This document shows positions 20,287 to 48,967 of a stretch of 64,000 bases of DNA, piece by piece. Source of the stretch: Candidatus Electronema sp. JM (GTDB lineage Bacteria; Desulfobacterota; Desulfobulbia; Desulfobulbales; Desulfobulbaceae); NCBI RefSeq assembly GCF_048287415.1, contig NZ_JBLWEN010000001.1:88790-152789 (forward strand), given 5' to 3'. Position 1 is the stretch's first letter. Every line of letters begins with the position of its first letter. The notes beneath the pieces are model-generated. The model was not told the DNA's origin. It searched no databases and saw only the letters and a list, made by a program, of their open reading frames with translations. A program made the position numbers and the translations under genes.

Positions 20287-20376
20287 GTTACGGTCTATTC
20301 AAAATCAATTACAAGGAAAATTTTTATGGTTATTCCGAGCACAACGAGGAATCTTTGCTGCTTCTGAAACATCCAT

Positions 20377-26047: not shown

Positions 26048-26352
26048 TTGCTTGCCTTCTCTGAAGAATTTATACGGAAAACGGCATGGTTGCGATGCGG
26101 CGCGCCGCATCCTGCCGGAAGCGGCTCATCATACCATAGTTCCGGCAAAAACGGGGAAAAATCTGCGGTTTGCAAGGAATTTTATCCAGATGGCCGCGCC
26201 GCCGCCAAGGAGCATTCCAGCGCGGAGCACTGCTGGCAAAATATGCAATAACGAAGAAAACAGGAACAGCCTGAATACAGTGGCATTTTTTCGCTACGAC
26301 TGGTATGATGGGCGGAGCTTGCCATTTTTATTTTTCATTGAGGAGAAGCGTT

Positions 26353-33006: not shown

Positions 33007-35025
33007 TTACAGGCCGCGAACTGGCGGCAAGGAAAGGGCAAGCCGGAAGCCCAAGTCGTCGCTGCGGTTGTCCGGCGAGTACCAGTAGCGGAACGCCGCC
33101 CGCACGAACAAGGGTGAGTCGCCCCAGCTACCGCCGCGAAACACGCGGCTCGAGCCTTTCTCAGGGCCAATCGGATTGCCCTTAGGACTGACAGCGTAAT
33201 AACCACTGTTGTACCAATCCGCGCACCACTCCCAGACATTGCCGTGCATGTCGTGAAGGCCCCAAGCGTTGGCCTTCTTTTCACCAACTGGATGGGTTGT
33301 ATTGCCGGAATTTTTGCCGTACCAAGCATAGTCCTGAAGCTGCGCCTCATCATCACCAAAGCACCAAGCCGACTCACTGCCTGCCCGGCAGGCATATTCC
33401 CACTCCGCTTCGGTGGGGAGGCGATAGGTGTGACCTGTTTCCTGACTCAGCCATTGACAGTAGGCAACCGCATCGTCCCAGCTTACATTGATCACCGACC
33501 GCTGCCCTCTGCCCCAGCCCCTGTTTTCTTTACCTGTGGCCTCACAGAAAACATCGTACTCGGCAAAGGTGACTGGATAGCGGCCAATGGCAAAGCTGTC
33601 CAGTTCCACCTCATGCACCGGTCGTGCATCGTCACTGCCATTGCCCTGAATATCTCCCATGCGGAAACGACCGCCGCGTATAAGCATCATCTTTATTCCG
33701 AGTCCACCGCCAAAAGACTCCGGCAAAAGACAAGGTAAGGCAATCTGATCAACGTGCCTGAATATCCCATCAGCAAGATCAACAAAGCGCACGAGCTGAT
33801 CCGTGGCCCGCAGCGGTGTTTGTTCAGCCAACTGCTTCTGCACGATGCCCCAAGCTAAGAGGAACTCCTGCACCGTGTAATGGCTGAAGCGGAAGGCGCG
33901 GTCAGAGTTGCGGTTGAGCAAAGATCGTCCGCCCAGCTCGAACTGCTCCAGCCAGGCTATGTTCGCGTCCGCACGGATGAGCTGCTTCAGCTCATCCTCT
34001 GAGAGTACCCGCGTGCCCTGCCGCTGCATCCGCTCCGCAATCCGCAGGCAGGCCAGAAAGAGTTCCTTGCGCTCAGGCACCTGCTCGCCTTGATGCTGCT
34101 CCCGCAGCTTGCGCACTTCCCGGTCAAGCCATTCCTCCACCGTGTAGGTGTTCCAGTCTTGGCGGCGGCAGTCCTTGGCCAGCAGCTTGTCAATATGCTG
34201 AAGGAGCATGGGCCGCATCCGCAAATCCTGCATGTGCTTGAGCAGACAGTCCGCCTTGGCCCGCTCATCCCTGATCTTCCCAGCCTGAAAGCACAGACGA
34301 TGGTGCCAATGCAAGGGCAGCTTGCGCTCAATGAAGTCCTGCACTTGGGCATCGGTGAAGGGGGAAAGATACAGCACCGGGCAGTGATAGCCGGACAGCA
34401 CCCTGATCTCCGGGCGGCCAAAGCGGTCTGGCTCCATCTCCGGGAAGAACTGCGTCCGGCTGGAGATGAGCACCCGGCGGAAATCCTCGCTGGCGCGCAG
34501 CAGCTCCAGCAGGCGGTCGCGGATGCGCTTCCATGCCTGCGGGTCTTCGTCCAAGGCATCGAGCAGCAGGACGGTCCCGCCCTTGTTCGGCAGAGCCTGC
34601 ACGCGCTCCAAGGTGTCTTTCCCCAGCTTGAACAGGGCGCAGCCATGCCCCTTGGGCCAGAAGCTGGTCAGGTGCATGAGCTTGATCATCAGCAGCAGCG
34701 AGGTCTTGCCCATCCCAGCATCAGAGAGGATGAACATCTGGTGGCGGCCATCCTTCTCCAAAGGCAGACCGCCCTGAAAGAACTCGTTGATCCGCTCAAA
34801 GGCAGGCTGCCGGGCCGCAGAGAGCAGGTCGTCCTGCTGCACATCCGCCGGGTTGCGGTCTTGCAGGAACGGCTCAATGTAGAGGCCGCGCAGGGTTTCA
34901 GGATCAACGAACTCGTCCCGCAGACGGTCAAGCTCCTGCTTCCGCTCGCCGGTCAGTTGCGTGAGCCGCTTCCAAAGATCCTTAATCCACGCTGGCTTGA
35001 CAAAGCTCAGGACTTCCAAGGCCAT
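33007..35025 (-). CDS. NACHT-like STAND P-loop NTPase fused to a C-terminal FGE-sulfatase (SUMF1-type) domain
   Basis: Walker A SDAGMGKTSLL and Walker B VLLLDALDE. The C-terminal ~270 aa carry RGGRFRMGD...PVHEVELDSFAIGRYPVT..EY..F......WDDAVAYCQWLS...YRLPTEAEWEYACRAG...GLHDMHGNVWEWCADWY. RBS AGGAGGG. Confidence 0.8.
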   Translation of the reverse strand: MALEVLSFVKPAWIKDLWKRLTQLTGERKQELDRLRDEFVDPETLRGLYIEPFLQDRNPADVQQDDLLSAARQPAFERINEFFQGGLPLEKDGRHQMFILSDAGMGKTSLLLMIKLMHLTSFWPKGHGCALFKLGKDTLERVQALPNKGGTVLLLDALDEDPQAWKRIRDRLLELLRASEDFRRVLISSRTQFFPEMEPDRFGRPEIRVLSGYHCPVLYLSPFTDAQVQDFIERKLPLHWHHRLCFQAGKIRDERAKADCLLKHMQDLRMRPMLLQHIDKLLAKDCRRQDWNTYTVEEWLDREVRKLREQHQGEQVPERKELFLACLRIAERMQRQGTRVLSEDELKQLIRADANIAWLEQFELGGRSLLNRNSDRAFRFSHYTVQEFLLAWGIVQKQLAEQTPLRATDQLVRFVDLADGIFRHVDQIALPCLLPESFGGGLGIKMMLIRGGRFRMGDIQGNGSDDARPVHEVELDSFAIGRYPVTFAEYDVFCEATGKENRGWGRGQRSVINVSWDDAVAYCQWLSQETGHTYRLPTEAEWEYACRAGSESAWCFGDDEAQLQDYAWYGKNSGNTTHPVGEKKANAWGLHDMHGNVWEWCADWYNSGYYAVSPKGNPIGPEKGSSRVFRGGSWGDSPLFVRAAFRYWYSPDNRSDDLGFRLALSLPPVRGL

Positions 35026-35193: not shown

Positions 35194-38100
35194 ATGAATA
35201 CTACCCAGCCGCCGCCCATCGCCTCCAAGGCTCTTGAAGCCAACTTCCAGCAGACCGCCAGTGCCGTTGCAATTTCTCCCCGCTACGCCCCGCTGCGGGA
35301 GGCCGTGGCCCGCTATCAGGGCTTGTCCGCCCGGCTGGAGCACCTGCTCTACGAAATCAGCCACCCGTTCCGCAACTGGCAGCTCATCATCGCCGAGCTG
35401 CGGCCCTTTGTCCTCAAGAATCTCAATCATTACCTCAGCCATGCGCAGGGGCCGGACTGCTTCGCCCTCTTCAGCTCGATCTTCCTGGACGCGCTGAAGG
35501 ACTCGCGCAAAAACAGCAAGGTCATCGCCCTGACCATGGAGGCCATGCTCGCCTATGCGGACAAAGTCGTCGCCTCGCTCAAGCCGGACATGCTGCCGCT
35601 CTACGGCCCGCAGCTCAACGCTTTTTTCGAGCAGCTCGCCCGCTTGGACGAGATAGACAGCAGCCTGATGGCGCACATGGTGCAGGGCCATCATCCGATG
35701 AAGAAGATGGCGGCCCAGCTCATCAGCCTGAGCCGCAGCGCGGGCGCGGAAACCTTCTCCTGCGCTGCGGCGGCCAAGCTGCTGCGGAAAATCCTCGAAA
35801 TCAACTATGCCTGCTGGCTGGGCGAAGAGGATCCGCAGCCTTGGTTCGAGTCGCAGTGCGGCGGCGGCAGCTGCTGCGGTCAGGCCGGAACCGACTTGGC
35901 GGCGATCTCTCACAGCCGGATGCGCGAGCATCTGACCGCGCTGGAGCAGATCAGCATTGACGAGGATCCGCAGGAGGCCCTCAGCCGCATCTTGGAGCTG
36001 CCCGCGCATATCGACATCGTCCGCCTCTACCGGGAAATCCCCGGCAAATTAGGCGAACATGCTGCGGACACCGACCCGGCGGCGGTGGAGAACCGGAAGC
36101 TCTTCTTCCTCTTCCGCATCATGGAGACCTCCGGCCTCTCGCTCATTCATGAGGAAACCCTGCGCGAGATCAACCGTTCTTTGGTGCAGCTCATCCGCCG
36201 TCAGAGCTTTGACGAGATTGCCGAGTTTTTCACCACCGCCTTTCACTTGCTCAAGGCCAATGTGCGCAAATATCCGCACACTTCGCTGCAATGTATTCAG
36301 GTCATCGGCGGTGAAGTCTTCCAGCGCGGCAACTCGCGTTTAGTTGAAGCCTTCCTCTTCGAGACCGTGCGCTTCGGCTTCCAGCACGCCAATGTCATGG
36401 GCGTGGACGAGGACTGGCAGCCGATCAGCAACCCGGCGCATTTGGCCAACATCCGGGTCTGGCTGAACTTGATCATGCAGGAGCCGAAATGGTGCTCGAC
36501 GCTCTTCTCGGCCCTGATCATCAACCTGCGTCTCTCCGGCACCTGCGTCAAAGACACCGACCTCTTCCAGCGCGACATCACCCAGCTCCTCAATCATCCC
36601 ATCGGCCCGATCTATAACTTGGCCAAGCAGTTCAGCAAGCTGATGCCGGTCTTCTTCAATGAGATCGGCGCGGAAGGCGAGCTGCGCGATGTCTCCACCG
36701 AATTGGATGAACTGCACAAGCGGCACGACGTGCTCATTCATTTTCTCCGCAAGCAGTCGCACGTCGAGTCGTCGAACCTGATTGTCGGCTTCATCCGGGC
36801 CATCTACAGCTTCTGGCTGACCTTGGACAAGAAACCGCTGGCCGCCTATCTGCCGGAAGAAATCCTCAGTCAGGTGGCGAGCAGCGGCCCTTATGTGGAC
36901 GAGCTGCATCTGCTCGCTCAACAGGTGCGCGAGGAATTGGAATACAGCACAGTGGACGAGCTGCTGACCTGGGACGAGGCGGAGCGGAAAGACTGGCTGC
37001 TGCGCCAGAGCGACATTTCCGCTGGCGAGCGCAAACGCTTTGACCTGCTGGTGCGGATGTTCAAGCTGCTCCACCACAAATACAGCTTGGGCATGGATGA
37101 GCTGCGCGGTCAGCTCGAGCACGCGGTGCAGAACGGCTTCCCGGAAATGACCGAGCTGCTGGAGGTTTTGGAGCACGGCGACACCTGGACCTGCTTGGAC
37201 GCAGTGCTGACGCAATTAGAGCAGCTTAAAGAGACCATCCTCAGCGACAAGAAATTTGCGCCGAAGGAGGAAATTTACTACAAGCGGCACATCGCGGTGG
37301 ATATTCCTTCCGTCTATGGCCGCTATTCGGAGCGCAAATTTGACGCGCTCGGCCTGACCTTCCGCTTGGAGAGCCTGGCCAATATTTATTTGGAACGGCT
37401 GAACCGCTCGATCAATCTCGGCTTCATCACCCAAGCCACCTTCATCGGCATCGCCAAAAGCCTCAGCCTCTCTCTCCGCGCCCTGAAGATTGACGGCATC
37501 AGCAGCCGCCGCTTGGACACCTACACCAGCCTGCTCAACTCCTCGATCAGCATCAAACGCTTCACCTACACCCAGCACTTGGACATCTTCCGTGGGTTGT
37601 CAGAAGGGGTGAAGGATGTGATTTATGCCTATTACACCAATATTCATCAGAACAATCTCTCGGTCATCATTCCCCAGATCGGCGGCGAGAATCTGCTGAC
37701 CAAAAACCGGACGCTCTGGGACGAGAAGGACATGTCCTCGACCGTGCACCGCCTTTCCGAGTCCTTCTTCCGCGACCTGATCGCAGCCACCTTCGGCCTC
37801 CAGCATTTGGACAACTTCATCACCCGCATCATCCACACGCTGGAGGCGCAGCGCGACATTCTCGACGAGCAGACCCTCGACCTGCTCATGACCTACAACC
37901 CGGAAATCGCCATCTCCTCGCTCTACAACGAGAATCCGCTCACGCACAACCTGATTCATCTCGGCAACAAGGGCTTCAACCTCATGCTCTTGGCCAACGA
38001 CGGCAAGCCGGTGCCGCCCGCCTTCATCATCACCACTGAAATATTCCGCTGCTGGCAGGCGGTGCAGGGCTTCACCAAGGCGCGGGAGGAGTTTATGCAG

Positions 38101-39444
38101 CGGCTGCACACCTCCATCACCGGCTTGGAGGAGCGCACAGGCCGCCGCTTCGGCTCGCCGGAAAACCCGCTGCTGCTTTCGGTGCGTTCCGGCGCGGCGA
38201 TTTCCATGCCCGGCATGATGACTACGATCCACAACGTCGGCCTGAACGAGGATTTGCTGGAGGAGCTGTGCGTCAAGCACCCGGAGCAGGAGTATTTTCT
38301 CTGGGACACCTACCGCCGCTTCCTGCAATCTTGGGCGATGGGCGAAGGCATGGGCCGCGAGGAGTTCGGCGCGCTGATGAACGCGCACAAGAAACGCTAC
38401 GGCAAGCGGCTGAAACGCGAATTCAGCCCGGCGCAGATGCGCGAGCTGGCTCTTGAATACCGCAACGCCATGCGGCGGCACGGATGCAGCGCGCCGGAAG
38501 ATCCTTGGCTTCAGCTGGTGCGGGCGGTGGAGATGGTGCTGGATTCGTGGAGCACCCATAAAGCCCGCCAGTACCGCCACCTGATGGCCGTCTCCGACGA
38601 CTGGGGCACAGCAGTGATTGTCCAGACGATGGTCTATGGCAACCGCAATCAGCAGTCCGGCAGCGGCGTGCTCTTCACCGCCCATCCCTACCGCAAGGTG
38701 CGGCGGGTCGCGCTCTGGGGCGATTACGCCTCCGGTGATCAGGGCGAGGACATCGTCTCCGGCCTTGTCACCAGCTATCCGATCTCGGTCGAGCAGGCGG
38801 AGCTGGACGGGCGTTCGGTCGAGCAGAGCCTCGAACGCCGCTTCCCGGAGATCTACGAGCAGCTCCTCAGCATCTCCCGCGACTTGGTGTACACTAAAGA
38901 ATGGAACCCGCAGGAGATTGAGTTCACCTTTGAAAGCCCTGACCCGGACGATCTCTACGTGCTCCAGACCCGCGACATGATCACCATCAAGAAGAAGGAG
39001 CATTTCCGGGTCTTCGAGGAAAGCGAGGCGCAGCAGGCGGCGGTGCTCGGCAAGGGCATCGGCGTGAGCGGCTCCGCCATCTCCGGCCTGGCTGTCTTCA
39101 CCGACGAAAACATCCGCCAGCTCCGCCACGAGCAGCCGGACATGCCGCTCATCCTCCTCCGCCAGGACACGGTGCCGGAGGACATCCGGGAAATCTCCAT
39201 GTGCGACGGCCTGCTCACCGCGCGCGGCGGCCAGACCTCGCACGCTTCCGTGGTCGCAACGCGCTTGGAGAAAACCTGTGTGGTCGGCTGCCGCGACTTG
39301 CAGGTCTTCGAGGACAAGGAGCAGGCGGCCATCAACGGCCTTGTGATAAAATTCGGCGACCCGGTCTCCATTGACGGGCGCAGCGGCCTCTTCCTGCGCG
39401 GCATCCATCCGACGCGAGAAGAGGTGCATATTTTGCCGCTGTAG
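35194..39444 (+). CDS. 1416-aa PPDK-like protein: ~900-aa unknown helical N-terminal region + PPDK-type ATP-grasp + swivelling phospho-His domain, with no PEP/pyruvate TIM-barrel domain
   Basis: From about residue 915 it reads HLGNKGFNLMLLA..G.PVPPAFIITTE, LLLSVRSGAAISMPGMMTTIHNVGLN, GVLFTAHPY and GDQGEDIVSG. The mobile domain is GLLTARGGQTSHASVVATRLEKTCVVGC. The protein ends about 65 aa after the catalytic-His motif. Confidence 0.75.
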   Translation: MNTTQPPPIASKALEANFQQTASAVAISPRYAPLREAVARYQGLSARLEHLLYEISHPFRNWQLIIAELRPFVLKNLNHYLSHAQGPDCFALFSSIFLDALKDSRKNSKVIALTMEAMLAYADKVVASLKPDMLPLYGPQLNAFFEQLARLDEIDSSLMAHMVQGHHPMKKMAAQLISLSRSAGAETFSCAAAAKLLRKILEINYACWLGEEDPQPWFESQCGGGSCCGQAGTDLAAISHSRMREHLTALEQISIDEDPQEALSRILELPAHIDIVRLYREIPGKLGEHAADTDPAAVENRKLFFLFRIMETSGLSLIHEETLREINRSLVQLIRRQSFDEIAEFFTTAFHLLKANVRKYPHTSLQCIQVIGGEVFQRGNSRLVEAFLFETVRFGFQHANVMGVDEDWQPISNPAHLANIRVWLNLIMQEPKWCSTLFSALIINLRLSGTCVKDTDLFQRDITQLLNHPIGPIYNLAKQFSKLMPVFFNEIGAEGELRDVSTELDELHKRHDVLIHFLRKQSHVESSNLIVGFIRAIYSFWLTLDKKPLAAYLPEEILSQVASSGPYVDELHLLAQQVREELEYSTVDELLTWDEAERKDWLLRQSDISAGERKRFDLLVRMFKLLHHKYSLGMDELRGQLEHAVQNGFPEMTELLEVLEHGDTWTCLDAVLTQLEQLKETILSDKKFAPKEEIYYKRHIAVDIPSVYGRYSERKFDALGLTFRLESLANIYLERLNRSINLGFITQATFIGIAKSLSLSLRALKIDGISSRRLDTYTSLLNSSISIKRFTYTQHLDIFRGLSEGVKDVIYAYYTNIHQNNLSVIIPQIGGENLLTKNRTLWDEKDMSSTVHRLSESFFRDLIAATFGLQHLDNFITRIIHTLEAQRDILDEQTLDLLMTYNPEIAISSLYNENPLTHNLIHLGNKGFNLMLLANDGKPVPPAFIITTEIFRCWQAVQGFTKAREEFMQRLHTSITGLEERTGRRFGSPENPLLLSVRSGAAISMPGMMTTIHNVGLNEDLLEELCVKHPEQEYFLWDTYRRFLQSWAMGEGMGREEFGALMNAHKKRYGKRLKREFSPAQMRELALEYRNAMRRHGCSAPEDPWLQLVRAVEMVLDSWSTHKARQYRHLMAVSDDWGTAVIVQTMVYGNRNQQSGSGVLFTAHPYRKVRRVALWGDYASGDQGEDIVSGLVTSYPISVEQAELDGRSVEQSLERRFPEIYEQLLSISRDLVYTKEWNPQEIEFTFESPDPDDLYVLQTRDMITIKKKEHFRVFEESEAQQAAVLGKGIGVSGSAISGLAVFTDENIRQLRHEQPDMPLILLRQDTVPEDIREISMCDGLLTARGGQTSHASVVATRLEKTCVVGCRDLQVFEDKEQAAINGLVIKFGDPVSIDGRSGLFLRGIHPTREEVHILPL

Positions 39445-39451
39445 CTGATGG

Positions 39452-39478
39452 CGAAAAAGGGGCGAAGAAAATCGCCCC
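39452..39478 (-). terminator. Rho-independent terminator of the AT-rich operon (hairpin shared with the convergent PPDK-like gene)
   Basis: GGGGCGA (39459-39465) pairs with TCGCCCC (39472-39478). Read on the minus strand, the hairpin is followed directly by TTTTT. Confidence 0.6.
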
Positions 39479-39495: not shown

Positions 39496-40212
39496 CTATT
39501 GAGCAGTGCCTTTTCGAGGAATCTTCAGCCGTAGTCTTGGATAAATTAAGTTTGGGTTATCCATCAACTGAGGATGCTTCTCTTTATTTGCCAAAATAAT
39601 TTCTTGAACAGAAACGTGGTGTCGTTCAGCGATCTTTCCTAAACAATCGCCTTCCATTACTTGATAGCAGTCTTTGCCTAAATAGCAATCAACAGTCTCC
39701 TTTAGTTCTGTGATATTTTCTGGATTGGCATAGAATATGTAGACTGGCGCGAAAATCAAAGAAACAGCGTACCATCTTTTTTTACGAAATATCCATCTAA
39801 TGTTTATTGTTTTTTCATAAATTTTTTTTATTTTGCTTTTGCAATTTTCAATAAAAATTATGCCGCCGCTCAAGATGCCATCTATTTTATAGACAAAAAC
39901 AGGCAGATTCGACCTGTATTTCCGTATCAATCTATTTCCATATCCTTCCATGTAAAGAAGGATAAAAAACAATGTAAAAACACAGAATGCTATTATTTTA
40001 AATAAAATCATTAAAATCCAAGGAAGCACCCGGAGCGCAAGCCAAGGAATCAACAACATCAATACGAAAAGAATAACAAACGGGAGTGCAACGGATAGCC
40101 ATTCTGATCTTGATGCAGAAAATAGCTGTTCGGAAATAACTTGGAAGAAAAGAATACCTTTTATAAGGTATTCATCTTGAATTTGGTTTAACAGGCTATT
40201 CAGGCGTTCCAT
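39496..40212 (-). CDS. Island gene D: polytopic membrane protein with C-terminal LysM domain
   Basis: There are 3-4 hydrophobic helices (LSVALPFVILFVLMLLIPWLAL, ILMILFKIIAFCVFTLFFILLY, AVSLIFAPVYIFY). The LysM-like C-terminus is YQVMEGDCLGKIAERHHVSVQEIILAN...IYPRLRLKIP. The start overlaps the gene C stop by 17 nt. Confidence 0.7.
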   Translation of the reverse strand: MERLNSLLNQIQDEYLIKGILFFQVISEQLFSASRSEWLSVALPFVILFVLMLLIPWLALRVLPWILMILFKIIAFCVFTLFFILLYMEGYGNRLIRKYRSNLPVFVYKIDGILSGGIIFIENCKSKIKKIYEKTINIRWIFRKKRWYAVSLIFAPVYIFYANPENITELKETVDCYLGKDCYQVMEGDCLGKIAERHHVSVQEIILANKEKHPQLMDNPNLIYPRLRLKIPRKGTAQ

Positions 40213-41437
40213 CTCTCCTTATTGATTCAGGGTGTATATTAATATCCGCACTTTCTTCTTGTTGATCCTGTTGTTTTTCCTCGCTGGATGACTTTTCTCC
40301 AATAAGAGCAGCTCCTTGGTCTGACAATCTTCCTACCTTCTGCACAAGTGATTTGGCAATATCCTCAAACCTCCATTCGCCGATCACACCTTTTTCAACG
40401 AAAATTTTTAATATTTCTATACAAGTTGAATTCTCTTCAACACGCATCTTCTCTTCCCTGTCTATTTGCTGTTTGACAAATGAAAGCAATTCTCTGTCGT
40501 TTGGATTTTCTGGATTGCATATTGCAATAATTCCGCGCCAATTACCAATTGACAGGAGCGGCGACAGCAGCGTTTCCCTATTTAGCCTATGATTGAATTC
40601 AATTCGCTGCATTTCAAGCTGCTTCTCAAATTCAATCTGCTTGATTCGCATCTCTGCTTCCATTTTCTTCAATTCAAAATTCATACTTTGTTCCAGCAGG
40701 ATAGTTTGCCTATAAAGCTCAATTTTCCTATCCTTAAATAGCAGCTCCTGTCTCATGGACTCTATCTCCATTTTCTGCTGCATCAGCCGTTTTTCCATTT
40801 CAGCCTTTATGGCATCTACCGAGAATTGCTCCTGAATGATTTTTTCTTGATTTTTTGCATCTATCGTCCCCAGCTTTCCATCAATCAGCCTTTTGCTGAT
40901 GGATTCATGTGGCGACAGCGTAACGAATGGAGGACGGCTTAACTTGAATCCTAAGTCATGAATTTTATTGCCATATATCAATTGACTTTTAAGCTCCTCA
41001 ACAACAGCTCGTTCTGCCTGCGATGCCTGCTCGTTCGCATAGTTTCGACAGATAGGCCGGATTATATCAAGAGCTGACTCTTTTAAAAAATCCCGAATGT
41101 CTCTCCTTCCATTCTGCACAATAAGCAATGGATTATCTATGCAATAAGTCAATGTGACTTCAGCTTGAAAAGGGAGTTCGTCAGCACAAGGAATACTTAC
41201 TGAAAAAAGAATTGAATATTCCGACAGATCAACTTCATAATACACCTTATATGTGCCGATGAGAATGTCGCCAGCTGTCGGCCCGCCATTTTTTCCTGCG
41301 TAAACAACAATTGGCGGACAATTTTCTCCAAGAAAGACATGTGCCTTTCCGAATTTCGGCGATTCAGGCCGTTTGAAGGAAAATTTTTCCAGTTTTCTCT
41401 CAATAACAAGCGGATATTCTTCAGGAGCGAAATCCAT
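40196..41437 (-). CDS. Island gene C: SPFH/band-7-like N-terminal domain + long coiled coil (flotillin-like architecture), putative
   Basis: FSVSIPCADELPFQAEVTLTYCIDNPLLIVQNG..DIRDFL resembles the SPFH beta-alpha core. Residues ~195-290 are Glu/Lys/Met/Gln-rich heptad-like sequence. The start overlaps the gene B stop by 17 nt. Confidence 0.5.
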   Translation of the reverse strand: MDFAPEEYPLVIERKLEKFSFKRPESPKFGKAHVFLGENCPPIVVYAGKNGGPTAGDILIGTYKVYYEVDLSEYSILFSVSIPCADELPFQAEVTLTYCIDNPLLIVQNGRRDIRDFLKESALDIIRPICRNYANEQASQAERAVVEELKSQLIYGNKIHDLGFKLSRPPFVTLSPHESISKRLIDGKLGTIDAKNQEKIIQEQFSVDAIKAEMEKRLMQQKMEIESMRQELLFKDRKIELYRQTILLEQSMNFELKKMEAEMRIKQIEFEKQLEMQRIEFNHRLNRETLLSPLLSIGNWRGIIAICNPENPNDRELLSFVKQQIDREEKMRVEENSTCIEILKIFVEKGVIGEWRFEDIAKSLVQKVGRLSDQGAALIGEKSSSEEKQQDQQEESADINIHPESIRRDGTPE

Positions 41438-42929
41438 TTTTTATCTCTGTTAAAATTTTCAAGGAAGTTTCAGATTCATCAGACCATTTTTCTAAGTACG
41501 CGCAAATGCAATTGCGATTTCTTGGAATACGAGAGACATCATATAAAATTCTTGCGAGAGTTTTCCAGAATTTTCCGTGCATGTCAATATGTTTCAGCCA
41601 CTTGAATATTTCAGTAAGAGCAAGTCGTCTGATTGGCTCCGAATCAAAAACTCTTTGCAGCAGACGGACAATGAGTTCTTCCGTCTTTGCTTTCTCTTCC
41701 GCAAGAATAAGAAGGCTCGGATGCTGGGAGCCGTCTTTAATTGACCAAGAAATACGCATCAAATCTGAAAATATAAGCAGAGACAAGCGATGAAGCGAGG
41801 ATTTTTTCTCCTGCCGTCCCCATTGGTTAAGAGATTGCAGAACGAGAACCGACGAACTTGATTGCTTGAAGAGCCATTTGACAGCATAAGCTATATCTTT
41901 AAAGAGTATTCCGTTGCCTGAATTTGCAATATTTCTTAAATCTTCGAGAGCTTGTTCAGGAAAATGCTGACCAAGACAAGAGCAATATGCGAAAATTGCA
42001 GTTTGATTCAATTTGACTGAATTTTTCAGACTACTCCAATAATGAATACTATTTAAAGAAAGTTGAGCAACATCTTCGTTTTCATCATATAAAACAACTG
42101 CAAGCGCAAATCCAACTAATTTTTGGATAGATTGACTTTCTGATTTTGCCCAAGGCAACAATATTTGGTCACGAACCGGTTGAAATTCATACCGTGCCAG
42201 CCGACCCGCTGTTGCTGCTGCTCTCAGTCTGATTTGAGAATTTTCATGTTTCCCTAACTCAAACAACCATTGCAGCATTGCTTTTGCATAAACATCACGT
42301 TCATGCCAGATGTGATGCAAAACAGTTTCTGGAGTTTCTTGGTCATCAAATGCAACTTTCTTGACAGGACTTTTGCCGCATTCGGTAACTTCGCAATCAT
42401 TTTCAAGATGCGCTGATATGTCTTTAAGCCACTGACTCCTTTTCTTTTCCTCTATCTCTTCGTCCAGATTAGAAGTATTTTCTATCTCCGCTTCCTTCCG
42501 CGACTGCAACCGAATGATATTTTGCAAATACTGGCTCGCCTCATCAACTAATCGGTAATTGCAGCCATTAAACACTGACAGTGAAATGATAAAACTGCGC
42601 CTGCTTTTGCAGCTATCAAATATAGATTCGATAGAAGAATCAAACGATTTATCTTTGTCCGCTTGCGTTTTTTGGCCAGAATAATTGCTCTGATCTCCGG
42701 CGATTATCGAGCCAGTATTATTTATATTGCTGTTTGATGCATGAAACCCTCCAGTGTAATTATAATTTTTAATTATTTGAATAATAGTTCTGCTGTTCTC
42801 TGTAAAATCATCTGTTTCGTTCGTATGTATTTTATTGTATTTTATAGATTCTTCAACAGATTTTATACCGTCATCTTCAGAAAGATGATCAATTTTTTCA
42901 AAGAAATTTTCTTCGTCGCCTTGTTCCAT
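41421..42929 (-). CDS. Island gene B: hypothetical protein with an acidic/Asn-rich N-terminus and a HEAT/ARM-like helical repeat body
   Basis: A 502-aa ORF at about 35% GC. The HEAT-like motif IRLRAAATAGRLARY is present. The N-terminal motif TGSIIAGDQ echoes the gene A C-terminus. I recognised no enzymatic motif. Confidence 0.6.
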   Translation of the reverse strand: MEQGDEENFFEKIDHLSEDDGIKSVEESIKYNKIHTNETDDFTENSRTIIQIIKNYNYTGGFHASNSNINNTGSIIAGDQSNYSGQKTQADKDKSFDSSIESIFDSCKSRRSFIISLSVFNGCNYRLVDEASQYLQNIIRLQSRKEAEIENTSNLDEEIEEKKRSQWLKDISAHLENDCEVTECGKSPVKKVAFDDQETPETVLHHIWHERDVYAKAMLQWLFELGKHENSQIRLRAAATAGRLARYEFQPVRDQILLPWAKSESQSIQKLVGFALAVVLYDENEDVAQLSLNSIHYWSSLKNSVKLNQTAIFAYCSCLGQHFPEQALEDLRNIANSGNGILFKDIAYAVKWLFKQSSSSVLVLQSLNQWGRQEKKSSLHRLSLLIFSDLMRISWSIKDGSQHPSLLILAEEKAKTEELIVRLLQRVFDSEPIRRLALTEIFKWLKHIDMHGKFWKTLARILYDVSRIPRNRNCICAYLEKWSDESETSLKILTEIKNGFRS

Positions 42930-42942
42930 TTTTGATCTCTCT

Positions 42943-43353
42943 TCATTTTTTATTTATTTGATCCCTGCCTATAAAAGTCCCTTCATTGACAAAGGTGGAA
43001 TTTTTGATAAGCACACCTCCTGTTTGCACAATTCTTTCTACCTTTACCCCATAAAGCCGTGCGATATCTAACGCTAATTCCTGATCTTCTTGGAGCAGCT
43101 TTTTCACTTGAAAGTGCAGAGTCTTCTGCGCATCTTCTTCTGAAGGATCCCGTACCACATCTTCTGCCGCCATTTTCACACCTTCAACTCTTGCAGAAGA
43201 ACGGGAAGAAATTTTTGTCCAGACAGCCTTGGCCGTCTCCCATCCGTCAGAACCTATTTTTTCTAACGCTCCTCCCAGTATCTGTCCCCCACCGCTCAAC
43301 AGATAAGGAAGTACTGGCACTAAAGAAGAAACAACCATTTCAGCAAGTTCCAT
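42943..43353 (-). CDS. Island gene A: small helical protein (136 aa) resembling N-terminal adaptor modules of conflict-system NTPases
   Basis: LVPVLPYLLSGG..ILGGALEKIGSDGWETAKAVWTKI...DPSEEDAQKTLHFQVKKLLQEDQELALDIARL is followed by EGTFIGRDQ. It is the first gene of the operon, 13 nt upstream of gene B. Confidence 0.55.
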   Translation of the reverse strand: MELAEMVVSSLVPVLPYLLSGGGQILGGALEKIGSDGWETAKAVWTKISSRSSARVEGVKMAAEDVVRDPSEEDAQKTLHFQVKKLLQEDQELALDIARLYGVKVERIVQTGGVLIKNSTFVNEGTFIGRDQINKK

Positions 43354-43653
43354 AGTTTTTTCTCAATGTCTCAAGTTGTTCCAGCAGCCAGAGCAATTCA
43401 GGCTTGACAAGGGCAGGCTGCCGATGAATACTGCGCTGCTCAGTATGTGATCACCTGCAATAAATTTCAAGTATTTTAAAAGGGCTTTTGAGCTGCCTTG
43501 CTGCCTGTCTCGGCGGTGCAACAGCGGAGGCCGTCACATCGTTTACATTGAAAAAACAAGGCTACAGGTCACAGCTTGGATTGAGCATTTACGTCGAGGA
43601 AGTTTTCAAATTATCTAAAAACTGAAATACTACAGCTTGCATGTCCGGCAGCT

Positions 43654-47340: not shown

Positions 47341-48318
47341 TCAGTCCTTGCGCCTGCTGATGCTGACGCGTTGCAGCAGGCGGTTCTGGTCTTTGGCACC
47401 GTCATAGGCAATGACAAGCTGCCAGCTGTCCTGCCGCTCCTCAAGCACAGCCAAGCCCTCAGCCTTGGAGTCCTCGTCCGGCGGCGCAATTTCACCAAGC
47501 AGACACAGCCTGCCCATATCCTCCGGCCTGCGGTCTTTGCCCGGCACCGTGTCTTTGCCGTTCCAATGATAAATTTGATACGAATCTGTCCCGTCGCCCA
47601 CCGGCCCGGCCAAGATCAAAAAACCGTCAGCAACAGTGGCGAGATCGCGGATACCCCGCCCGCCGAGCCGGACATACAGCAGCTCGTATTGTTCCGGCTC
47701 CTCCCAACGCAGCCGCAGCACCGGGACGTAATTGTCCCGGAAGACCGGTCCCCGGAAACCGACATGCAGCCAGCCGTCCTTGACAGCAAGGCCTTCAATG
47801 TCAACGCCGTTCTCTTTGCTGGGAATGCCGCAGAAGGCTTTCAAGGCCGGATCATTATAAATGATGCCGCGCAGACTGATTCTGTCCTTCGCCAGCTCCT
47901 TGCCGTCTTCATTCAGCCGCAGGCGGAAGAGCCAGTCCCGGCTGACCTCGTCTTCAATTTTGTCCTGATGAAAAGTCTCCCGGTTTTCCTTCCAGTTGCG
48001 TTCTTTCTTGATCTTCTTCCGTTTGGAGGAGTGCGAGCCGATGACGTAAGCAAGATCGCCTTCAACGCAGATGCCTTCAATATCCAGCTCCTTGCCTTGC
48101 GTTACGAGGATACTGTGCGCCGCCACGCAGCTGCCGTCGCTGTTTATCGTAAGAAACTGAATGCGATTCTCGTCTCCGTCATGGCCTGATGCCTCGTCTG
48201 CGCCGATGATTAAAAAGGAGCGGAACTTTGCGACCGCGCTCACATTCTCAAGGGCCAAAATTTCGCCTGATATGCTTATAAAGCAAGCAGGTGCCATATC
48301 CTCATTTCTCCATAACAT
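47341..48318 (-). CDS. DUF3616-like protein (hypothetical)
   Basis: Repeated D(I/V)EG(I/L)(A/C)V motifs (DIEGICVEG, VDIEGLAVKDGWLHVGFRGP, AEGLAVLEE) match my recollection of DUF3616. The start overlaps the upstream stop by 17 nt; an alternative internal Met exists. Confidence 0.45.
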   Translation of the reverse strand: MLWRNEDMAPACFISISGEILALENVSAVAKFRSFLIIGADEASGHDGDENRIQFLTINSDGSCVAAHSILVTQGKELDIEGICVEGDLAYVIGSHSSKRKKIKKERNWKENRETFHQDKIEDEVSRDWLFRLRLNEDGKELAKDRISLRGIIYNDPALKAFCGIPSKENGVDIEGLAVKDGWLHVGFRGPVFRDNYVPVLRLRWEEPEQYELLYVRLGGRGIRDLATVADGFLILAGPVGDGTDSYQIYHWNGKDTVPGKDRRPEDMGRLCLLGEIAPPDEDSKAEGLAVLEERQDSWQLVIAYDGAKDQNRLLQRVSISRRKD

Positions 48319-48967
48319 TATATTTCTTAATATGCCTGAAAGCGGTCAACGCATCAAGGATGAAATCAAGCGATCCGGCTGGGCCATTGTAATGATAGAC
48401 ATTCTTCTTAGCCATGACCAATTCTCCGATATGCACTGGTGAAAAATCAGGATCAGCGCATGAAAGCTGGAACCATTCTCCTTCTTTTTTTTGAAACTTC
48501 CCCTGCATGGCTTCGATATCATAATTTGCCACCTGGTCATCTGTCGCCCGCCACATATTGTAGCTGCCATGCCCGACAAGCACGATGCTTTGATATTTTG
48601 GATCAGTGAGAACGTTCATGAAATCCGCTTTGGTAGCCGCAAAAAAATAGTCTATTTTTTCTCCTCTTGCATTAAAATACCACGTCCATGCCGGGTAGCT
48701 TCCCAAAAAGCCGAACGGCGGCGCCCAATAATCATAATCTGAAAAGGCATGTGCGGACAGCAGAATTGCGGCGTTCTTATCTGTTTTTGTAAGTAAATTT
48801 GAAGTGAATGCAATCGCCGCTATTGGTATATAAACTGCGATAAGAATAACAACATATTTTATCAGAGGCTTAATGCTGATAGTTCCAAATTTTTTCTTAA
48901 ATATAACGTGATATAAGCTCATGGGTGTCGTGCATGTTGAAATGATATAGCTTTTTCTTATGATCAA
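48302..48967 (-). CDS. AT-rich membrane-anchored hypothetical protein
   Basis: N-terminal TM helix YVVILIAVYIPIAAIAF. I assigned no family. The ORF-track start at 48967 is TTG, and ATG at 48922 is an alternative. Composition is visibly AT-rich compared with both neighbours. Confidence 0.5.
   Translation of the reverse strand: MIIRKSYIISTCTTPMSLYHVIFKKKFGTISIKPLIKYVVILIAVYIPIAAIAFTSNLLTKTDKNAAILLSAHAFSDYDYWAPPFGFLGSYPAWTWYFNARGEKIDYFFAATKADFMNVLTDPKYQSIVLVGHGSYNMWRATDDQVANYDIEAMQGKFQKKEGEWFQLSCADPDFSPVHIGELVMAKKNVYHYNGPAGSLDFILDALTAFRHIKKYNVMEK

What the first reader, a model, noticed from the sequence alone, without database searches (positions are those of the whole stretch)
39496..43353. 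AT-rich four-gene operon (helical adaptor / HEAT-like / SPFH-coiled-coil / TM-LysM) matching no named system
Four minus-strand ORFs are packed as one translational unit. There is a 13-nt gap, then two 17-nt start/stop overlaps: ATGGATTTCGCTCCTGA at 41421-41437 and ATGGAACGCCTGAATAG at 40196-40212. Composition is foreign: my hand count gives 36% GC for 39841-39940 against 63% for 39301-39400 in the adjacent gene. The unit ends at a hairpin + T5 terminator (39452-39478) and starts after a 300-nt leader.

Products:
- A (136 aa) is helical. Its pattern (LP.L....G...WE.AK.VW..I....DP.D.DA...L...VKKLL..D..LA.DIARL, then GTFIGRDQ) recalls, from memory, the N-terminal adaptor modules that precede NTPase or effector domains in cyanobacterial and actinobacterial conflict systems.
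- B (502 aa) has an acidic, Asn-rich N-terminus with a similar GSIIAGDQ motif, then HEAT/ARM-like helices.
- C (413 aa) has an SPFH/band-7-like head plus a long coiled coil, a flotillin-like architecture.
- D (238 aa) is a 3-4 TM protein with a C-terminal LysM peptidoglycan-binding domain.

I saw no catalytic motif anywhere. The architecture suggests a membrane- or envelope-directed assembly, possibly an abortive-infection or envelope-stress module. Nearby lie a NACHT-FGE-sulfatase NTPase and other mobile-looking DNA. I know of no described defence, secretion or division system with this gene set.
Basis: partly seen in the sequence, partly recalled or inferred. Interest (0 to 1): 0.85.

Follow-up and report, generated by a model that had tools for sequence, protein, structure and literature searches.

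The report
Bell-type death switch with SPFH–LysM sensor
A horizontally acquired four-gene operon in a cable bacterium pairs a small 'Bell-type' membrane-attacking protein, through a shared 22-residue motif, with a HEAT/SPFH/LysM membrane module instead of the usual NLR-type ATPase, which suggests a new envelope-linked way of triggering cell suicide in filamentous bacteria.

Summary
The window matches Candidatus Electronema sp. JM, a cable bacterium. The cassette (A, B, C, D in that order) recurs in at least 10 loci from Electronema and cyanobacteria (Microcoleus, Okeania, Chamaesiphon MAG). In some of them B is split in two, and D's ectodomain varies.

The decisive finding concerns A and B. 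A's C-terminus and B's N-terminal region share a ~22-aa motif (GG[IV]HI..S.[IV].N.G..[IV]G.[DN]Q), significant in all 7 loci tested. A's helical domain belongs to a family of 545 representatives. Relatives of A carry published BASS amyloid-signalling motifs and lie directly upstream of NB-ARC, NACHT or nSTAND NTPases that repeat their tail motif.

So A–B follows the Bell/BASS gene-pair logic. The differences are that the receptor is a HEAT solenoid with no P-loop, the motif fits none of seven published classes tested, and the pair is always linked to a TM-less SPFH protein and a polytopic membrane protein (periplasmic LysM here). No defence, phage or plasmid database hit was found, and no literature describes this gene set.

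Verdict: a new variant of a known kind. Cell killing, amyloid formation and the trigger are all inferred.

The parts
43354..43561 (-). Conserved proximal leader, containing the promoter-like TTGAAA-N17-CATACT (43470-43442) and a ~85-nt 5'UTR.
   Evidence: Three-way alignment of the Electronema-type copies (window, L006, L089). About 200 nt are conserved and the last ~120 nt are nearly invariant. No significant RNA fold was found (z +1.35).
42943..43353 (-). Gene A, 136 aa: a small Bell-type helical protein (the putative membrane-targeting effector) with a C-terminal motif.
   Evidence: ORF. Orthologues occur in all cassette loci at 39-83% identity. Residues 3-102 match a family of 545 representatives. 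The N-terminus MELAEMVVSSLVPVLPYLL is hydrophobic with an acidic residue at position 2. P13, P16 and L18 are nearly invariant and W45 is invariant.
42958..43023 (-). Shared motif, copy 1: A residues 111-132, TGGVLIKNSTFVNEGTFIGRDQ.
   Evidence: Local alignment of the A tail against the B N-region gives z 5.9 with 0 of 2000 shuffles reaching the score. The motif is conserved in 9 A orthologues.
41421..42929 (-). Gene B, 502 aa: acidic N-terminus, the motif, a small helical mid-domain, then a HEAT/ARM alpha-solenoid. It has no P-loop.
42690..42755 (-). Shared motif, copy 2: B residues 59-80, TGGFHASNSNINNTGSIIAGDQ.
   Evidence: It lies in a region predicted as disordered in the monomer (pLDDT < 50 for residues 56-108).
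41436..42335 (-). B's HEAT/ARM-like alpha-solenoid, residues ~199-498: the putative docking or sensing scaffold.
   Evidence: This is the most conserved part of the family, with 61 invariant columns.
40196..41437 (-). Gene C, 413 aa: a divergent SPFH/Band-7 protein with no membrane anchor. The start overlaps B's stop by 17 nt.
   Evidence: Pfam Band_7 at residues 57-193 (nt 40859-41269). 7 of 9 family members match Band_7. No hydrophobic segment. No sequence relative in the PDB.
40568..40840 (-). Electronema-specific E/K/Q/M-rich (coiled-coil-like) insertion in C, residues ~200-290.
   Evidence: Absent from the five cyanobacterial orthologues in alignment A4. Composition.
39496..40212 (-). Gene D, 238 aa: polytopic membrane protein with a C-terminal LysM domain. 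The start overlaps C's stop by 17 nt.
   Evidence: ORF. The TM module (residues 38-163, nt 39724-40101) is homologous to the N-terminal part of the cyanobacterial D proteins at 27-34% identity. LysM covers residues 183-232 (nt 39517-39666). A basic loop at 122-146 (9 K/R) precedes the last TM segment, which places LysM in the periplasm (positive-inside rule, inference).
39449..39478 (-). Intrinsic terminator that ends the operon.
   Evidence: a 7-bp stem with 6 G-C pairs, followed by T5.

Best explanation
The cassette is a horizontally acquired conflict (regulated cell-death) module built on the Bell/BASS 'amyloid-signalling' principle, but with a new kind of receptor.

A is the executioner. 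It is a small helical Bell-type protein whose hydrophobic N-terminal helix is kept sheathed until its C-terminal ~22-residue motif is refolded. B carries the same motif ahead of a HEAT solenoid, and so occupies the position that an NLR-type STAND NTPase holds in canonical pairs.

B has no NTPase to drive oligomerisation. I infer that the two always-linked partners supply both the assembly platform and the signal: C (a soluble SPFH protein, from a family known to form large rings or cages on membranes) and D (a polytopic membrane protein whose variable periplasmic domain is a peptidoglycan-binding LysM here).

The proposed sequence is as follows. A perturbation at the envelope is sensed by D. 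D recruits or rearranges C oligomers. These cluster B, and the clustered B motifs nucleate a cross-beta template. That template converts A's motif, and A then permeabilises the membrane of the affected cell in the filament.

Shown: operon structure, conservation of the four-gene set, the shared motif, A's family membership and that family's canonical pairing with NLRs, B's fold and lack of a P-loop, and the SPFH and LysM domains.

Inferred: amyloid formation by the motif, the killing activity of A, the B-C-D contacts, the nature of the trigger, and the direction of signalling.

The confidence of 0.5 is for the whole statement. For the narrower claim that A-B is a Bell/BASS-type motif-coupled pair with a non-NTPase partner, I would give about 0.75.
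For: (1) Conserved cassette. The order A, B (or B-N plus B-C), C, D is found in Electronema (window, L006+L088, L089), Microcoleus L001, Okeania L002/L009/L010, metagenomes L003-5 and L087, a Cyanophyceae MAG L008 and a Chamaesiphon MAG L011/L012.

(2) Shared motif. The A-tail against B-N-region alignment gives z 3.8-9.3 in all 7 loci tested. There are only two copies in the window. The region is disordered in the B monomer model.

(3) A's family. There are 545 representatives, mostly 135-165 aa, with a conserved N-terminal helix (consensus MD...LA....LAP.LPYLLK.GEKAAE) and variable G/S/T/N-rich tails. The domain is fused to NACHT/STAND or CHAT in longer members.

(4) Canonical pairs among A's relatives. 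In L014 the tail is NVIASGERAVAIGGNASGNTVSTGD and the next gene is an nSTAND1 protein starting NVIAQGERSIAVGGQATNNEIYSGD (z 12). In 18 of ~45 evaluable metagenomic loci the tail is repeated at the N-terminus of the gene immediately downstream (z 5-15). Those partners are NB-ARC+TPR, NACHT+HEAT (with Pfam EAD10 over the motif), nSTAND1 or AAA_16.

(5) Published BASS classes. Tails of A's relatives score as members of published classes: 40.7, 35.9 and 18.0 bits on C09, and 13.6 bits on C02 (dataset of PMC8086366).

(6) Literature. Bell proteins are ~120-140 aa with a hydrophobic N-terminal helix and an acidic residue at position 2-3, are collinear with and often overlap the partner gene, and occur in multicellular bacteria (10.1101/2020.01.06.895854). 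A Bell-type protein, Bab, kills through amyloid signalling from a non-NLR partner, Agp (10.1101/2024.11.07.622273).

(7) Receptor-like behaviour of D. The TM module is constant and the ectodomain is variable: LysM, TPR+LysM, TPR plus another domain, or another domain alone.

(8) Conflict-system signatures. The cassette proteins diverge faster (63-79% identity) than the adjacent host gene (85%) between two Electronema genomes. Composition is foreign. Neighbouring genes include PIN, Trypco2, CHAT, ParE and a STAND-FGE protein.
Against: - No sequence or fold link from A to the solved Babybell structure 9H9V or to HeLo/MLKL. A's model is poor (pLDDT 54), so its fold search is uninformative.
- The cassette motif fits none of the seven published BASS classes tested (at most 9.2 bits, which is background) and no solved amyloid motif. 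Its amyloid nature is therefore unproven.
- In B the motif is internal (residues 59-80, after an acidic ~58-aa extension), not at the extreme N-terminus as in NLR partners.
- Within-locus A/B motif pairs are not significantly closer than between-locus pairs (391 of 5040 permutations).
- A-like domains also occur fused to CHAT proteases, which fits an adaptor role as well as an effector role.
- Nothing here shows B-C-D contacts, a trigger, or toxicity.
- No PADLOC model matches. Neighbourhood enrichment for defence genes was not tested statistically.
- Chamaesiphon, one of the hosts, is not filamentous.
Confidence: 0.5

Rival explanations
1. It is a non-lethal envelope or membrane-microdomain scaffold. 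C (SPFH) organises a membrane patch that D's LysM anchors to peptidoglycan, and B and A are structural accessories. The shared motif is only a beta-zipper that holds A on B permanently. The function would be envelope maintenance or stress tolerance in filaments, not cell death.
For: SPFH proteins are classically scaffolds and protease regulators, and LysM is a peptidoglycan anchor (established knowledge; Pfam hits). There is no catalytic or known toxin domain. No PADLOC hit. No locus-specific co-variation of the motif. The cassette sits next to polysaccharide-synthesis genes in the window (Bac_transf and GT2).
Against: A's homologues are systematically paired with STAND NTPases by matching terminal motifs and carry published BASS motifs. 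That is a signalling and death context, not a housekeeping one. The cassette is rare and patchy: 22 B clusters in 5.8 billion proteins, and ~4 of 185,579 species representatives in a pattern-limited scan. It is compositionally foreign, and it evolves faster than the adjacent host gene. The window's flank is not conserved in other loci.
Confidence: 0.17
2. The polarity is reversed, or A is only an adaptor. A's helical domain would be an EAD-like homotypic adaptor rather than an executioner. The membrane proteins would be the effector: D acting as a holin-like or pore-forming TM protein, gated by the SPFH protein C. B and A would then form the cytoplasmic sensing or regulatory end.
For: A-like domains occur fused to CHAT proteases on either side, as expected for adaptors. 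Pfam EAD10 covers the motif region of one NLR partner, and Kaur et al. interpret such modules as adaptors (PMC7159879). D has 3 strongly hydrophobic segments and C has none. SPFH proteins are known regulators of membrane proteins (established knowledge).
Against: Most A-family members are stand-alone ~140-aa proteins with nothing but the helical domain and a tail, so in canonical pairs they must be the output. The most conserved part is the hydrophobic N-terminal helix, as in Bab, where that helix is needed for killing. D's variable ectodomain looks like an input rather than an output. A does not match any Pfam EAD model.
Confidence: 0.15
3. It is a remnant of a phage lysis or mobile-element cassette (holin-like D with a LysM cell-wall-binding module), or a selfish addiction module, with no host function.
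For: GC is low and GC3 is ~0.35 in a GC3 ~0.8 genome. D's LysM resembles the LysM of phage endolysins and transglycosylases (PHROGs E 9e-6 to 6e-3). PIN-toxin genes lie next to the cassette in L006, L089 and L001.
Against: No relative of B in 2.9 million viral contigs or in 72,556 plasmids. PHROGs has no hit for A, B or C. There is no integrase, tRNA or flanking direct repeat. All four ORFs are intact and conserved across phyla, and the 3' junction is the same in two Electronema genomes. This indicates maintained function.
Confidence: 0.04

Closest known systems
Bell-domain / BASS-motif / NLR gene pairs of multicellular bacteria (Dyrka et al. 2020, bioRxiv 10.1101/2020.01.06.895854); analogue of fungal HET-S/NWD2
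   Same: A small (~136 aa) helical protein has a hydrophobic N-terminal helix, an acidic residue at position 2 and a C-terminal ~22-aa G/N/Q-rich motif. The same motif is present near the N-terminus of the next gene's product. The genes are collinear and almost abutting. The hosts are mostly filamentous. A's homologues form such pairs with NB-ARC, NACHT and nSTAND proteins and carry published BASS motifs.
   Different: The partner B has no NTPase and no TPR or WD arm; it is a HEAT solenoid. The motif belongs to none of the published classes tested, and in B it is internal, behind an acidic extension. Two further genes, for an SPFH protein and a TM protein with LysM, are obligatorily linked. 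B/C-family genes are absent from 68 loci of other A-family members.
Bab/Agp abortive-infection system of E. coli ECOR25 (Ibarlosa et al. 2024, bioRxiv 10.1101/2024.11.07.622273)
   Same: It sets the precedent that a Bell-type executioner can be activated through a shared ~20-aa amyloid motif by a partner that is not an NLR. It is a two-gene collinear arrangement whose output is membrane damage.
   Different: [quoted passage not shown] Here the partner is HEAT plus SPFH plus TM-LysM, neither A nor B hits EAD10, and A shows no detectable sequence similarity to Bab(1-90), PDB 9H9V. Function has been demonstrated for Bab/Agp but not for this cassette.
Effector-associated domains (EADs) of NTP-dependent conflict systems (Kaur, Burroughs, Iyer, Aravind 2020, PMC7159879; 2021, PMC8195603)
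   Same: The same small non-enzymatic module is present on two products of adjacent genes and couples a core component to an effector. These systems are enriched in multicellular prokaryotes. Some iSTAND systems also carry TM segments with peptidoglycan-binding domains.
   Different: No Pfam EAD model matches A or B. There is no NTPase, vWA, MoxR or GTPase core. The duplicated element is a 22-residue beta-motif, not a folded domain. SPFH and LysM are not discussed as system components in those papers: LysM does not occur, SPFH appears only in a reference title, and one 'Band-7' occurrence in PMC7159879 was not read.
SPFH/Band-7 scaffolds (stomatin, HflK/C, flotillin FloA/FloT, QmcA/YbbJ-NfeD pairs)
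   Same: C has a Band_7 domain above Pfam's cut-off, and it is encoded next to, and translationally coupled with, a membrane protein.
   Different: C has no TM or hairpin anchor, no NfeD partner, no FtsH context and no detectable sequence relative in the PDB. The coiled coil is lineage-specific.

Membership tests
Bell/BASS amyloid-signalling gene pair | A small (~100-140 aa) helical protein with a hydrophobic N-terminal helix and an acidic residue at position 2-3. | tested here: met
   A is 136 aa and starts MELAEMVVSSLVPVLPYLL. The model gives 3 helices. The family consensus is MD...LA....LAP.LPYLLK, and the N-terminal helix is the best-conserved part. The criteria are those given.
Bell/BASS amyloid-signalling gene pair | Homology of the helical domain to Bell or Babybell domains. 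| tested here: inconclusive
   No Pfam model exists for Bell. Profiles A3 and A5 do not reach 9H9V, HeLo or MLKL. A's model is too poor for fold comparison. There is indirect support: A's homologues (E down to 1e-17) carry published BASS motifs (classes C09 and C02) and pair with NLRs.
Bell/BASS amyloid-signalling gene pair | A C-terminal ~20-25-aa motif repeated at the N-terminus of the adjacent, collinear gene product. | tested here: met
   z 3.8-9.3 in 7 loci, with a 13-nt intergenic gap. Deviation: in B the motif is at residues 59-80, not residues 2-25.
Bell/BASS amyloid-signalling gene pair | The partner is an NLR-like STAND NTPase (NB-ARC or NACHT, plus TPR or WD). | tested here: not met
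   No Walker A in any of the 22 B homologues. No NTPase Pfam hit. The fold is a HEAT solenoid.
Bell/BASS amyloid-signalling gene pair | The motif belongs to a described BASS class. | tested here: not met
   All 18 cassette motifs score at most 9.2 bits on HMMs of classes C01, C02, C03, C06, C07, C09 and C12, while cross-class background reaches up to 12.8 bits. The controls score 13.6-40.7 bits. Only a validation subset of the published data was used, and the other classes were not tested.
Bell/BASS amyloid-signalling gene pair | The motif forms amyloid or prion-like assemblies and transmits the fold. | not testable with these tools
   Needs fibril assays, ThT binding, ssNMR or in-vivo foci. 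The only indirect signs are G/N/Q-rich composition with alternating hydrophobic residues, and disorder in the monomer model.
Bell/BASS amyloid-signalling gene pair | Occurrence in multicellular or filamentous prokaryotes. | tested here: met
   Hosts are Ca. Electronema (cable bacteria), Microcoleus and Okeania. That these taxa are filamentous is from my own knowledge. Exceptions: a Chamaesiphon MAG (unicellular, colony-forming), although Dyrka et al. also list Chamaesiphon as BASS-bearing.
Bab/Agp (BASS11 / TGP) system | The partner has TPR, GreA/B-C and PIN domains, and the motif is BASS11 (within EAD10). | tested here: not met
   No such domains in B, and no EAD10 hit on A or B at E <= 1. 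PIN genes lie near some cassettes but as separate 151-157-aa proteins.
EAD-coupled NTP-dependent conflict systems (Kaur et al.) | A Pfam EAD1-11 domain on both partners, plus an NTPase, vWA or GTPase core. | tested here: not met
   No EAD hit for A or B or among the 25 families listed for 103 A-family members (52 families matched in all). No NTPase in the cassette.
SPFH / Band 7 (for C) | A Band_7 domain above the curated threshold. | tested here: met
   29.0 bits against a 23.6-bit cut-off. 7 of 9 orthologues match, best E 3.6e-8.
SPFH / Band 7 (for C) | An N-terminal membrane anchor (TM or hairpin), as in stomatin, HflK/C and flotillin. | tested here: not met
   No 19-residue window with Kyte-Doolittle hydropathy >= 1.6. 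The N-terminus is charged in all orthologues.
LysM peptidoglycan-binding domain (for D) | A LysM domain above the threshold, located outside the cytoplasm. | tested here: met
   Pfam LysM scores 28.5 bits against a 20.9-bit cut-off. The periplasmic location follows from the positive-inside rule (9 K/R in loop 122-146 before the last TM segment) and is an inference.
Known anti-phage defence systems (PADLOC-DB v2) | Any component matches a defence-system model. | tested here: not met
   0 families for A-D at E <= 1.

The most novel reading that the evidence does not exclude
This is an NTPase-independent amyloid-signalling death switch. An SPFH ring or cage on the inner membrane, coupled to the cell wall through a receptor-like membrane protein with interchangeable periplasmic domains (LysM here), serves as the oligomerisation platform. 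That platform nucleates the motif of a HEAT adaptor and so fires a Bell-type pore former. It would work as an envelope-integrity or 'damaged neighbour' sensor that sacrifices single cells in multicellular filaments (cable bacteria, filamentous cyanobacteria).
Probability: 0.3. Interest if true: 0.85.

Novelty: new variant of a known kind. Interest (0 to 1): 0.7.

Why it matters
Amyloid (prion-like) signalling from a receptor to a Bell/HeLo-type executioner is known from fungi, and since 2020-2024 from bacteria. In every described case the receptor is an NLR-type NTPase, or in one case an RNA-polymerase-binding TPR-GreAB-PIN protein.

This cassette would add a third receptor type that works at the membrane. 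It has no nucleotide switch and is tied to an SPFH scaffold and to a wall-binding membrane protein with swappable ectodomains.

If the mechanism holds, three things follow:
- SPFH proteins gain a concrete role in bacterial regulated cell death.
- Motif nucleation is shown to be drivable by a structural oligomer instead of an NTPase.
- There is a testable handle on programmed cell death in cable bacteria, whose centimetre-long filaments share a periplasm and conductive fibres, and in bloom-forming filamentous cyanobacteria.

It also defines a new motif class that can be used to mine genomes. Finally, it documents cross-phylum sharing of the cassette between cyanobacteria and Desulfobulbaceae, most simply explained by horizontal transfer.

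Tried and rejected
- **Structure of A.** The AlphaFold2 model from only 4 close sequences had pLDDT 54. The Foldseek search against the PDB gave only generic helical bundles at E > 0.1, so it is not usable.
- **Sequence link to Bab, HeLo or MLKL.** Profiles of 9 and 103 sequences against the PDB returned only designed helical repeats, through a helix-capping pattern (AAEEV.DPSD.DA..AL). Rejected as uninformative.
- **Pfam on 103 A-family members.** No family covers the domain. The weak YadA_head hits come from the tails.
- **Motif profile against the PDB.** There is a single chance hit to a beta-strand segment of NahF, and no HET-s, RHIM or Bab. I also considered by eye a resemblance to HET-s 'HGGIRISDQ'. 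I dropped it because that stretch is the flexible loop of HET-s (from memory) and the profile search did not support it.
- **Locus-specific co-variation of the A and B motifs.** Not significant (p ~0.08).
- **B as a degenerate NLR.** The B-family HMM against the NLR partners' sensor arms gave nothing, and there is no Walker A.
- **Phage or plasmid carriage.** None found.
- **Structured RNA.** Rfam finds nothing in the window, and the fold of the 5'UTR is not better than shuffles.
- **Insertion signatures.** No tRNA, no integrase and no convincing flanking direct repeats.
- **Uninformative look-ups.** Three context look-ups (P0133, P0184, P0034) gave short contigs or unrelated neighbours.
- **Genome-collection scan for B.** It was pattern-limited and did not recover the Electronema genomes themselves, so its species count is a lower bound.

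Full report
**1.

Four minus-strand ORFs occupy 39496-43353:

| Gene | Coordinates | Length |
|---|---|---|
| A | 42943-43353 | 136 aa |
| B | 41421-42929 | 502 aa |
| C | 40196-41437 | 413 aa |
| D | 39496-40212 | 238 aa |

The A-B gap is 13 nt. GC is 0.36 for 39841-39940 and 0.63 for 39301-39400. The cassette as a whole is 38.8% GC, against 57% for the window. Its GC3 is 0.33-0.38, against 0.84 and 0.73 in the two flanking genes. A 7-bp G+C-rich hairpin followed by T5 ends the unit at 39478-39449. A 300-nt leader with a promoter-like TTGAAA-17-CATACT precedes A. B is 100% identical to a hypothetical protein of Candidatus Electronema sp. JM, a cable bacterium of the Desulfobulbaceae.

**2. 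What the four proteins are**

- **C** matches Pfam Band_7/SPFH above the curated cut-off, as do 7 of 9 orthologues. It has no hydrophobic anchor and no sequence relative in the PDB. Its long coiled-coil-like stretch is an Electronema-specific insertion of ~75 aa.
- **D** has a C-terminal LysM domain. Before it come hydrophobic segments at about residues 38-60, 62-88 and 147-163. A very basic loop (9 K/R in residues 122-146) precedes the last segment. By the positive-inside rule this puts LysM in the periplasm (inference).
- **A** has no family hit. Its model is poor (pLDDT 54) but shows three long helices and a short beta tail.
- PADLOC, NCBIfam and PHROGs recognise nothing beyond LysM.

**3. 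The gene set is conserved**

B's family is rare: 22 clusters among 5.8 billion proteins. A pattern-limited scan of 185,579 species genomes found only cyanobacteria. Wherever enough DNA is available, the same genes appear in the same order:

- Microcoleus (L001).
- Okeania (L002/L009, L010).
- Metagenomic cyanobacteria (L003-5, L008, L087).
- A Chamaesiphon MAG (L011/L012).
- Two further Electronema lineages (L006+L088, and L089).

Identities to the window proteins are 39-83% for A, 41-91% for B and 30-91% for C. For D, the TM module is 27-34% identical and the LysM 47-49% identical in the cyanobacterial copies, and the whole protein is 63-89% identical in the other two Electronema copies.

The variations are informative:

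- In many cyanobacterial loci B is split into a 177-196-aa protein (acidic region, motif, small helical domain) and a 355-361-aa HEAT protein.
- D keeps its membrane module, but its ectodomain changes. It is LysM alone in Electronema, and TPR+LysM in L001, L003 and L008. L002 has TPR plus an unrelated C-terminus. L087 has an unrelated domain and the gene is inverted.

**4. The key feature is a motif shared by A and B**

A ends with TGGVLIKNSTFVNEGTFIGRDQ (residues 111-132), and B contains TGGFHASNSNINNTGSIIAGDQ (residues 59-80). The same pairing is present in every locus, with the consensus GG[IV]HI..S.[IV].N.G..[IV]G.[DN]Q. Local alignment of the A tail with the B N-terminal region beats shuffles in all seven loci tested, with z between 3.8 and 9.3. 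These are the only two copies in the window. In the B model the motif lies in a disordered stretch.

**5. What A's family tells us**

An exhaustive HMMER search with A found 545 representatives at E <= 1e-3, of which 79 are at E <= 1e-10. Most are 135-165 aa and match A's residues ~3-102. Their N-terminus is strongly conserved (MD...LA....LAP.LPYLLK.GEKAAE), with W45 invariant. Their tails are variable and rich in G, S, T and N. A few members are fused to NACHT/STAND NTPases or to CHAT proteases.

- **Genomic context of relatives.** P0037 ends in NVIASGERAVAIGGNASGNTVSTGD. The next gene encodes an nSTAND1-pentapeptide protein that begins NVIAQGERSIAVGGQATNNEIYSGD (z 12).
- **Metagenome scan.** A scan with a sub-alignment of the family returned 68 loci. 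In 18 of ~45 evaluable loci the tail is repeated at the N-terminus of the gene immediately downstream, with gaps of -3 to 64 nt and z of 5-15.
- **Identity of the partners.** They are NB-ARC+TPR, NACHT+HEAT (whose motif region is recognised by Pfam EAD10), nSTAND1 or AAA_16 proteins.
- **Published motif classes.** I scored these tails against HMMs built from the published BASS dataset (supplement of PMC8086366). They behave as class members: 40.7, 35.9 and 18.0 bits for class C09, and 13.6 bits for C02. Cross-class background reaches at most 7.6-12.8 bits.

This is the arrangement described by Dyrka et al. as Bell-domain/BASS/NLR pairs. The Bab/Agp work showed that such a pair mediates abortive infection through amyloid templating of a Bell-type pore-forming protein. 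A also meets the descriptive Bell criteria: its size, the hydrophobic N-terminal helix with an acidic residue at position 2, and a collinear, nearly abutting partner gene.

**6. Where this cassette departs from the known kind**

- B, which sits in the receptor position, is not an NTPase. It is not detectably related to the sensor arms of the NLR partners.
- All 18 cassette motifs score at background on all seven BASS classes tested (at most 9.2 bits). They find no solved amyloid motif. Neither A nor B hits EAD10.
- In B the motif lies behind a conserved acidic ~58-aa extension, rather than at the extreme N-terminus.
- B is always accompanied by the SPFH protein and the D-type membrane protein. 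Conversely, none of the 68 loci of other A-family members encodes a B- or C-family protein. More distant A proteins with this motif class (P0035, P0036) again sit next to B-like genes.
- I found no paper that links SPFH or LysM with Bell, BASS or EAD systems. The search is limited to the open-access library.

**7. Mechanism proposed**

The steps below are inferred. What has been shown is listed in sections 1-6.

By analogy with HET-S/NWD2 and Bab/Agp, clustering of B motifs would nucleate a cross-beta template. That template would convert A's motif and release A's N-terminal helix to attack the membrane. B lacks an NTPase to drive oligomerisation, so the obvious candidate platform is C. SPFH proteins are known to build large rings or cages on membranes (established knowledge). 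C would be positioned by D, whose variable periplasmic domain (LysM, peptidoglycan-binding) looks like the input.

The module would then report an envelope-level event, such as phage attack, wall damage or a breach in the filament, and kill the affected cell.

The evidence does not decide between this and a reversed polarity, nor between it and a constitutive scaffold (see the rival explanations). Within-locus co-variation of the motifs is not significant, and A's fold could not be compared with Babybell.

**8. Origin and evolution**

The cassette's composition (GC 0.36-0.39) is similar to its flanks in Okeania and in some metagenomic cyanobacterial loci (L002, L010, L003; flanks 0.37-0.40). 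It is lower than the flanks in L001 and L008 (0.47-0.48), and it is strongly foreign in both Electronema genomes tested (0.39 against 0.57-0.61). This fits transfer into cable bacteria from a low-GC donor.

The 3' junction is the same in the window and in a second Electronema genome: D lies convergent with a 1415/1416-aa PPDK-like gene. The PPDK-like proteins are 85% identical, while A, B, C and D are 71, 76, 79 and 63% identical. The cassette was therefore probably present before these lineages split, has diverged faster than its neighbour, and has not ameliorated.

The proximal ~200 nt of the leader are more conserved than the coding sequence among three Electronema copies. They do not form a significantly stable RNA structure, so a promoter or operator role is more likely.

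No phage, plasmid, tRNA, integrase or flanking-repeat signature was found.

**9. Verdict**

This is a real, conserved, horizontally acquired operon. Its A-B half belongs to a known kind, the Bell/BASS-type motif-coupled executioner-receptor pairs. The receptor architecture (HEAT plus SPFH plus a membrane protein with a LysM or other ectodomain, and no NTPase) and the motif class are new. I rate it a new variant of a known kind, with interest 0.7. The functional claims (amyloid formation, killing, envelope trigger) remain to be tested.

Noticed in passing
L006:6910-7365 (-), L089:177-632 (-), L001:11807-12280 (+): A 151-157-aa PIN-domain gene lies next to the cassette in two Electronema copies (divergent, upstream of A) and in Microcoleus (downstream of D). 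The Electronema and Microcoleus PINs are homologous (26% identity, E 9e-13). The window copy lacks it (tblastn finds nothing). It may be a facultative fifth component or just a neighbouring toxin.
   Followed up: partly
L006:5783-6691 versus window 38536-39441; L088:1978-6225: In the second Electronema genome, a 302-aa duplicate of the C-terminus of the PPDK-like protein (88% identical to the window's) lies upstream of PIN and the cassette. The full-length gene lies downstream of D. PIN plus the cassette is therefore bracketed by direct repeats of the PPDK 3' end, which may be a trace of how the island moved or recombined.
   Followed up: partly
window 43354-43561 (-): The proximal leader of the operon is more conserved than the coding sequence among three Electronema copies (the last ~120 nt are nearly invariant). 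It has no significant RNA fold (z +1.35) and no Rfam hit. It may be an operator or promoter region.
   Followed up: partly
window 39496-43353; L006/L088: The cassette keeps GC3 ~0.35 in genomes with GC3 ~0.75-0.84, although it appears to predate the split of two Electronema lineages (adjacent PPDK-like proteins 85% identical). This lack of amelioration is unexplained.
   Followed up: partly
window 33007-35025 (-): A 672-aa protein has a C-terminal FGE-sulfatase domain (E 3.9e-60) and a STAND-like N-terminus: P-loop-like DAGMGKTS, LLLDALDE, and only sub-threshold nSTAND3/NPHP3_N hits. This architecture was reported for cyanobacterial conflict systems (PMC7159879). It carries no copy of the cassette motif.
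   Followed up: partly
window 22337-26110 (-): gyrB is interrupted by an intein. The Intein_splicing domain lies between the DNA_gyraseB and Toprim domains, and the ORF is 1257 aa.
   Followed up: no
window 17714-21864 (-): A second low-GC island (0.45-0.49) carries two PD-(D/E)XK 'transposase' family genes (PDDEXK_2), a GT2 glycosyltransferase and a 495-aa TPR protein.
   Followed up: no
window 35194-39444 (+): A 1416-aa protein has PPDK_N and PEP-utilizers domains only in its C-terminal third. The ~950-aa N-terminal region has no Pfam match. It is conserved (85%) and syntenic in a second Electronema genome.
   Followed up: no
window 47341-48967 (-): A low-GC stretch (0.44 at 48-49 kb) carries a DUF3616 protein and a 221-aa ORF with no Pfam hit.
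   Followed up: no
L003:6592-7407, also L004 and L005: Immediately upstream of the cassette in one cyanobacterial lineage lie a Trypco2-domain gene, a 96-aa coiled-coil gene and a 42-aa fragment. This looks like the remains of a trypsin-Trypco conflict system. An AAA_15/AAA_21 ATPase and a ParE toxin are also nearby.
   Followed up: no
L002:9086-10008: In Okeania sp. KiyG1 the SPFH gene is called as two ORFs (173 + 99 aa) and D ends in a non-LysM domain. IS605-family transposase genes lie nearby. This copy may be decaying.
   Followed up: no
window 39131-39145 and 43639-43653: A 15-nt inverted repeat (AGCAGCCGGACATGC / GCATGTCCGGCAGCT, 93% complementary) brackets the cassette. One arm lies inside the PPDK-like gene and the other directly after the stop codon of the sugar-transferase gene. 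It may be chance.
   Followed up: no
L058:1575-5942 (product residues 4-77): Pfam EAD10 (24.6 bits against a 24.1-bit cut-off) covers the motif-bearing N-terminus of a NACHT-HEAT partner of an A-family protein. This suggests that EAD10 and the published BASS class C09/BASS11-like motif describe overlapping entities.
   Followed up: partly
window 27051-28052 (+): A GGGtGRT-family protein (E 1e-193) lies next to a NifU-like ORF, between gyrB and an SbcC-like ATPase (28273-31884).
   Followed up: no
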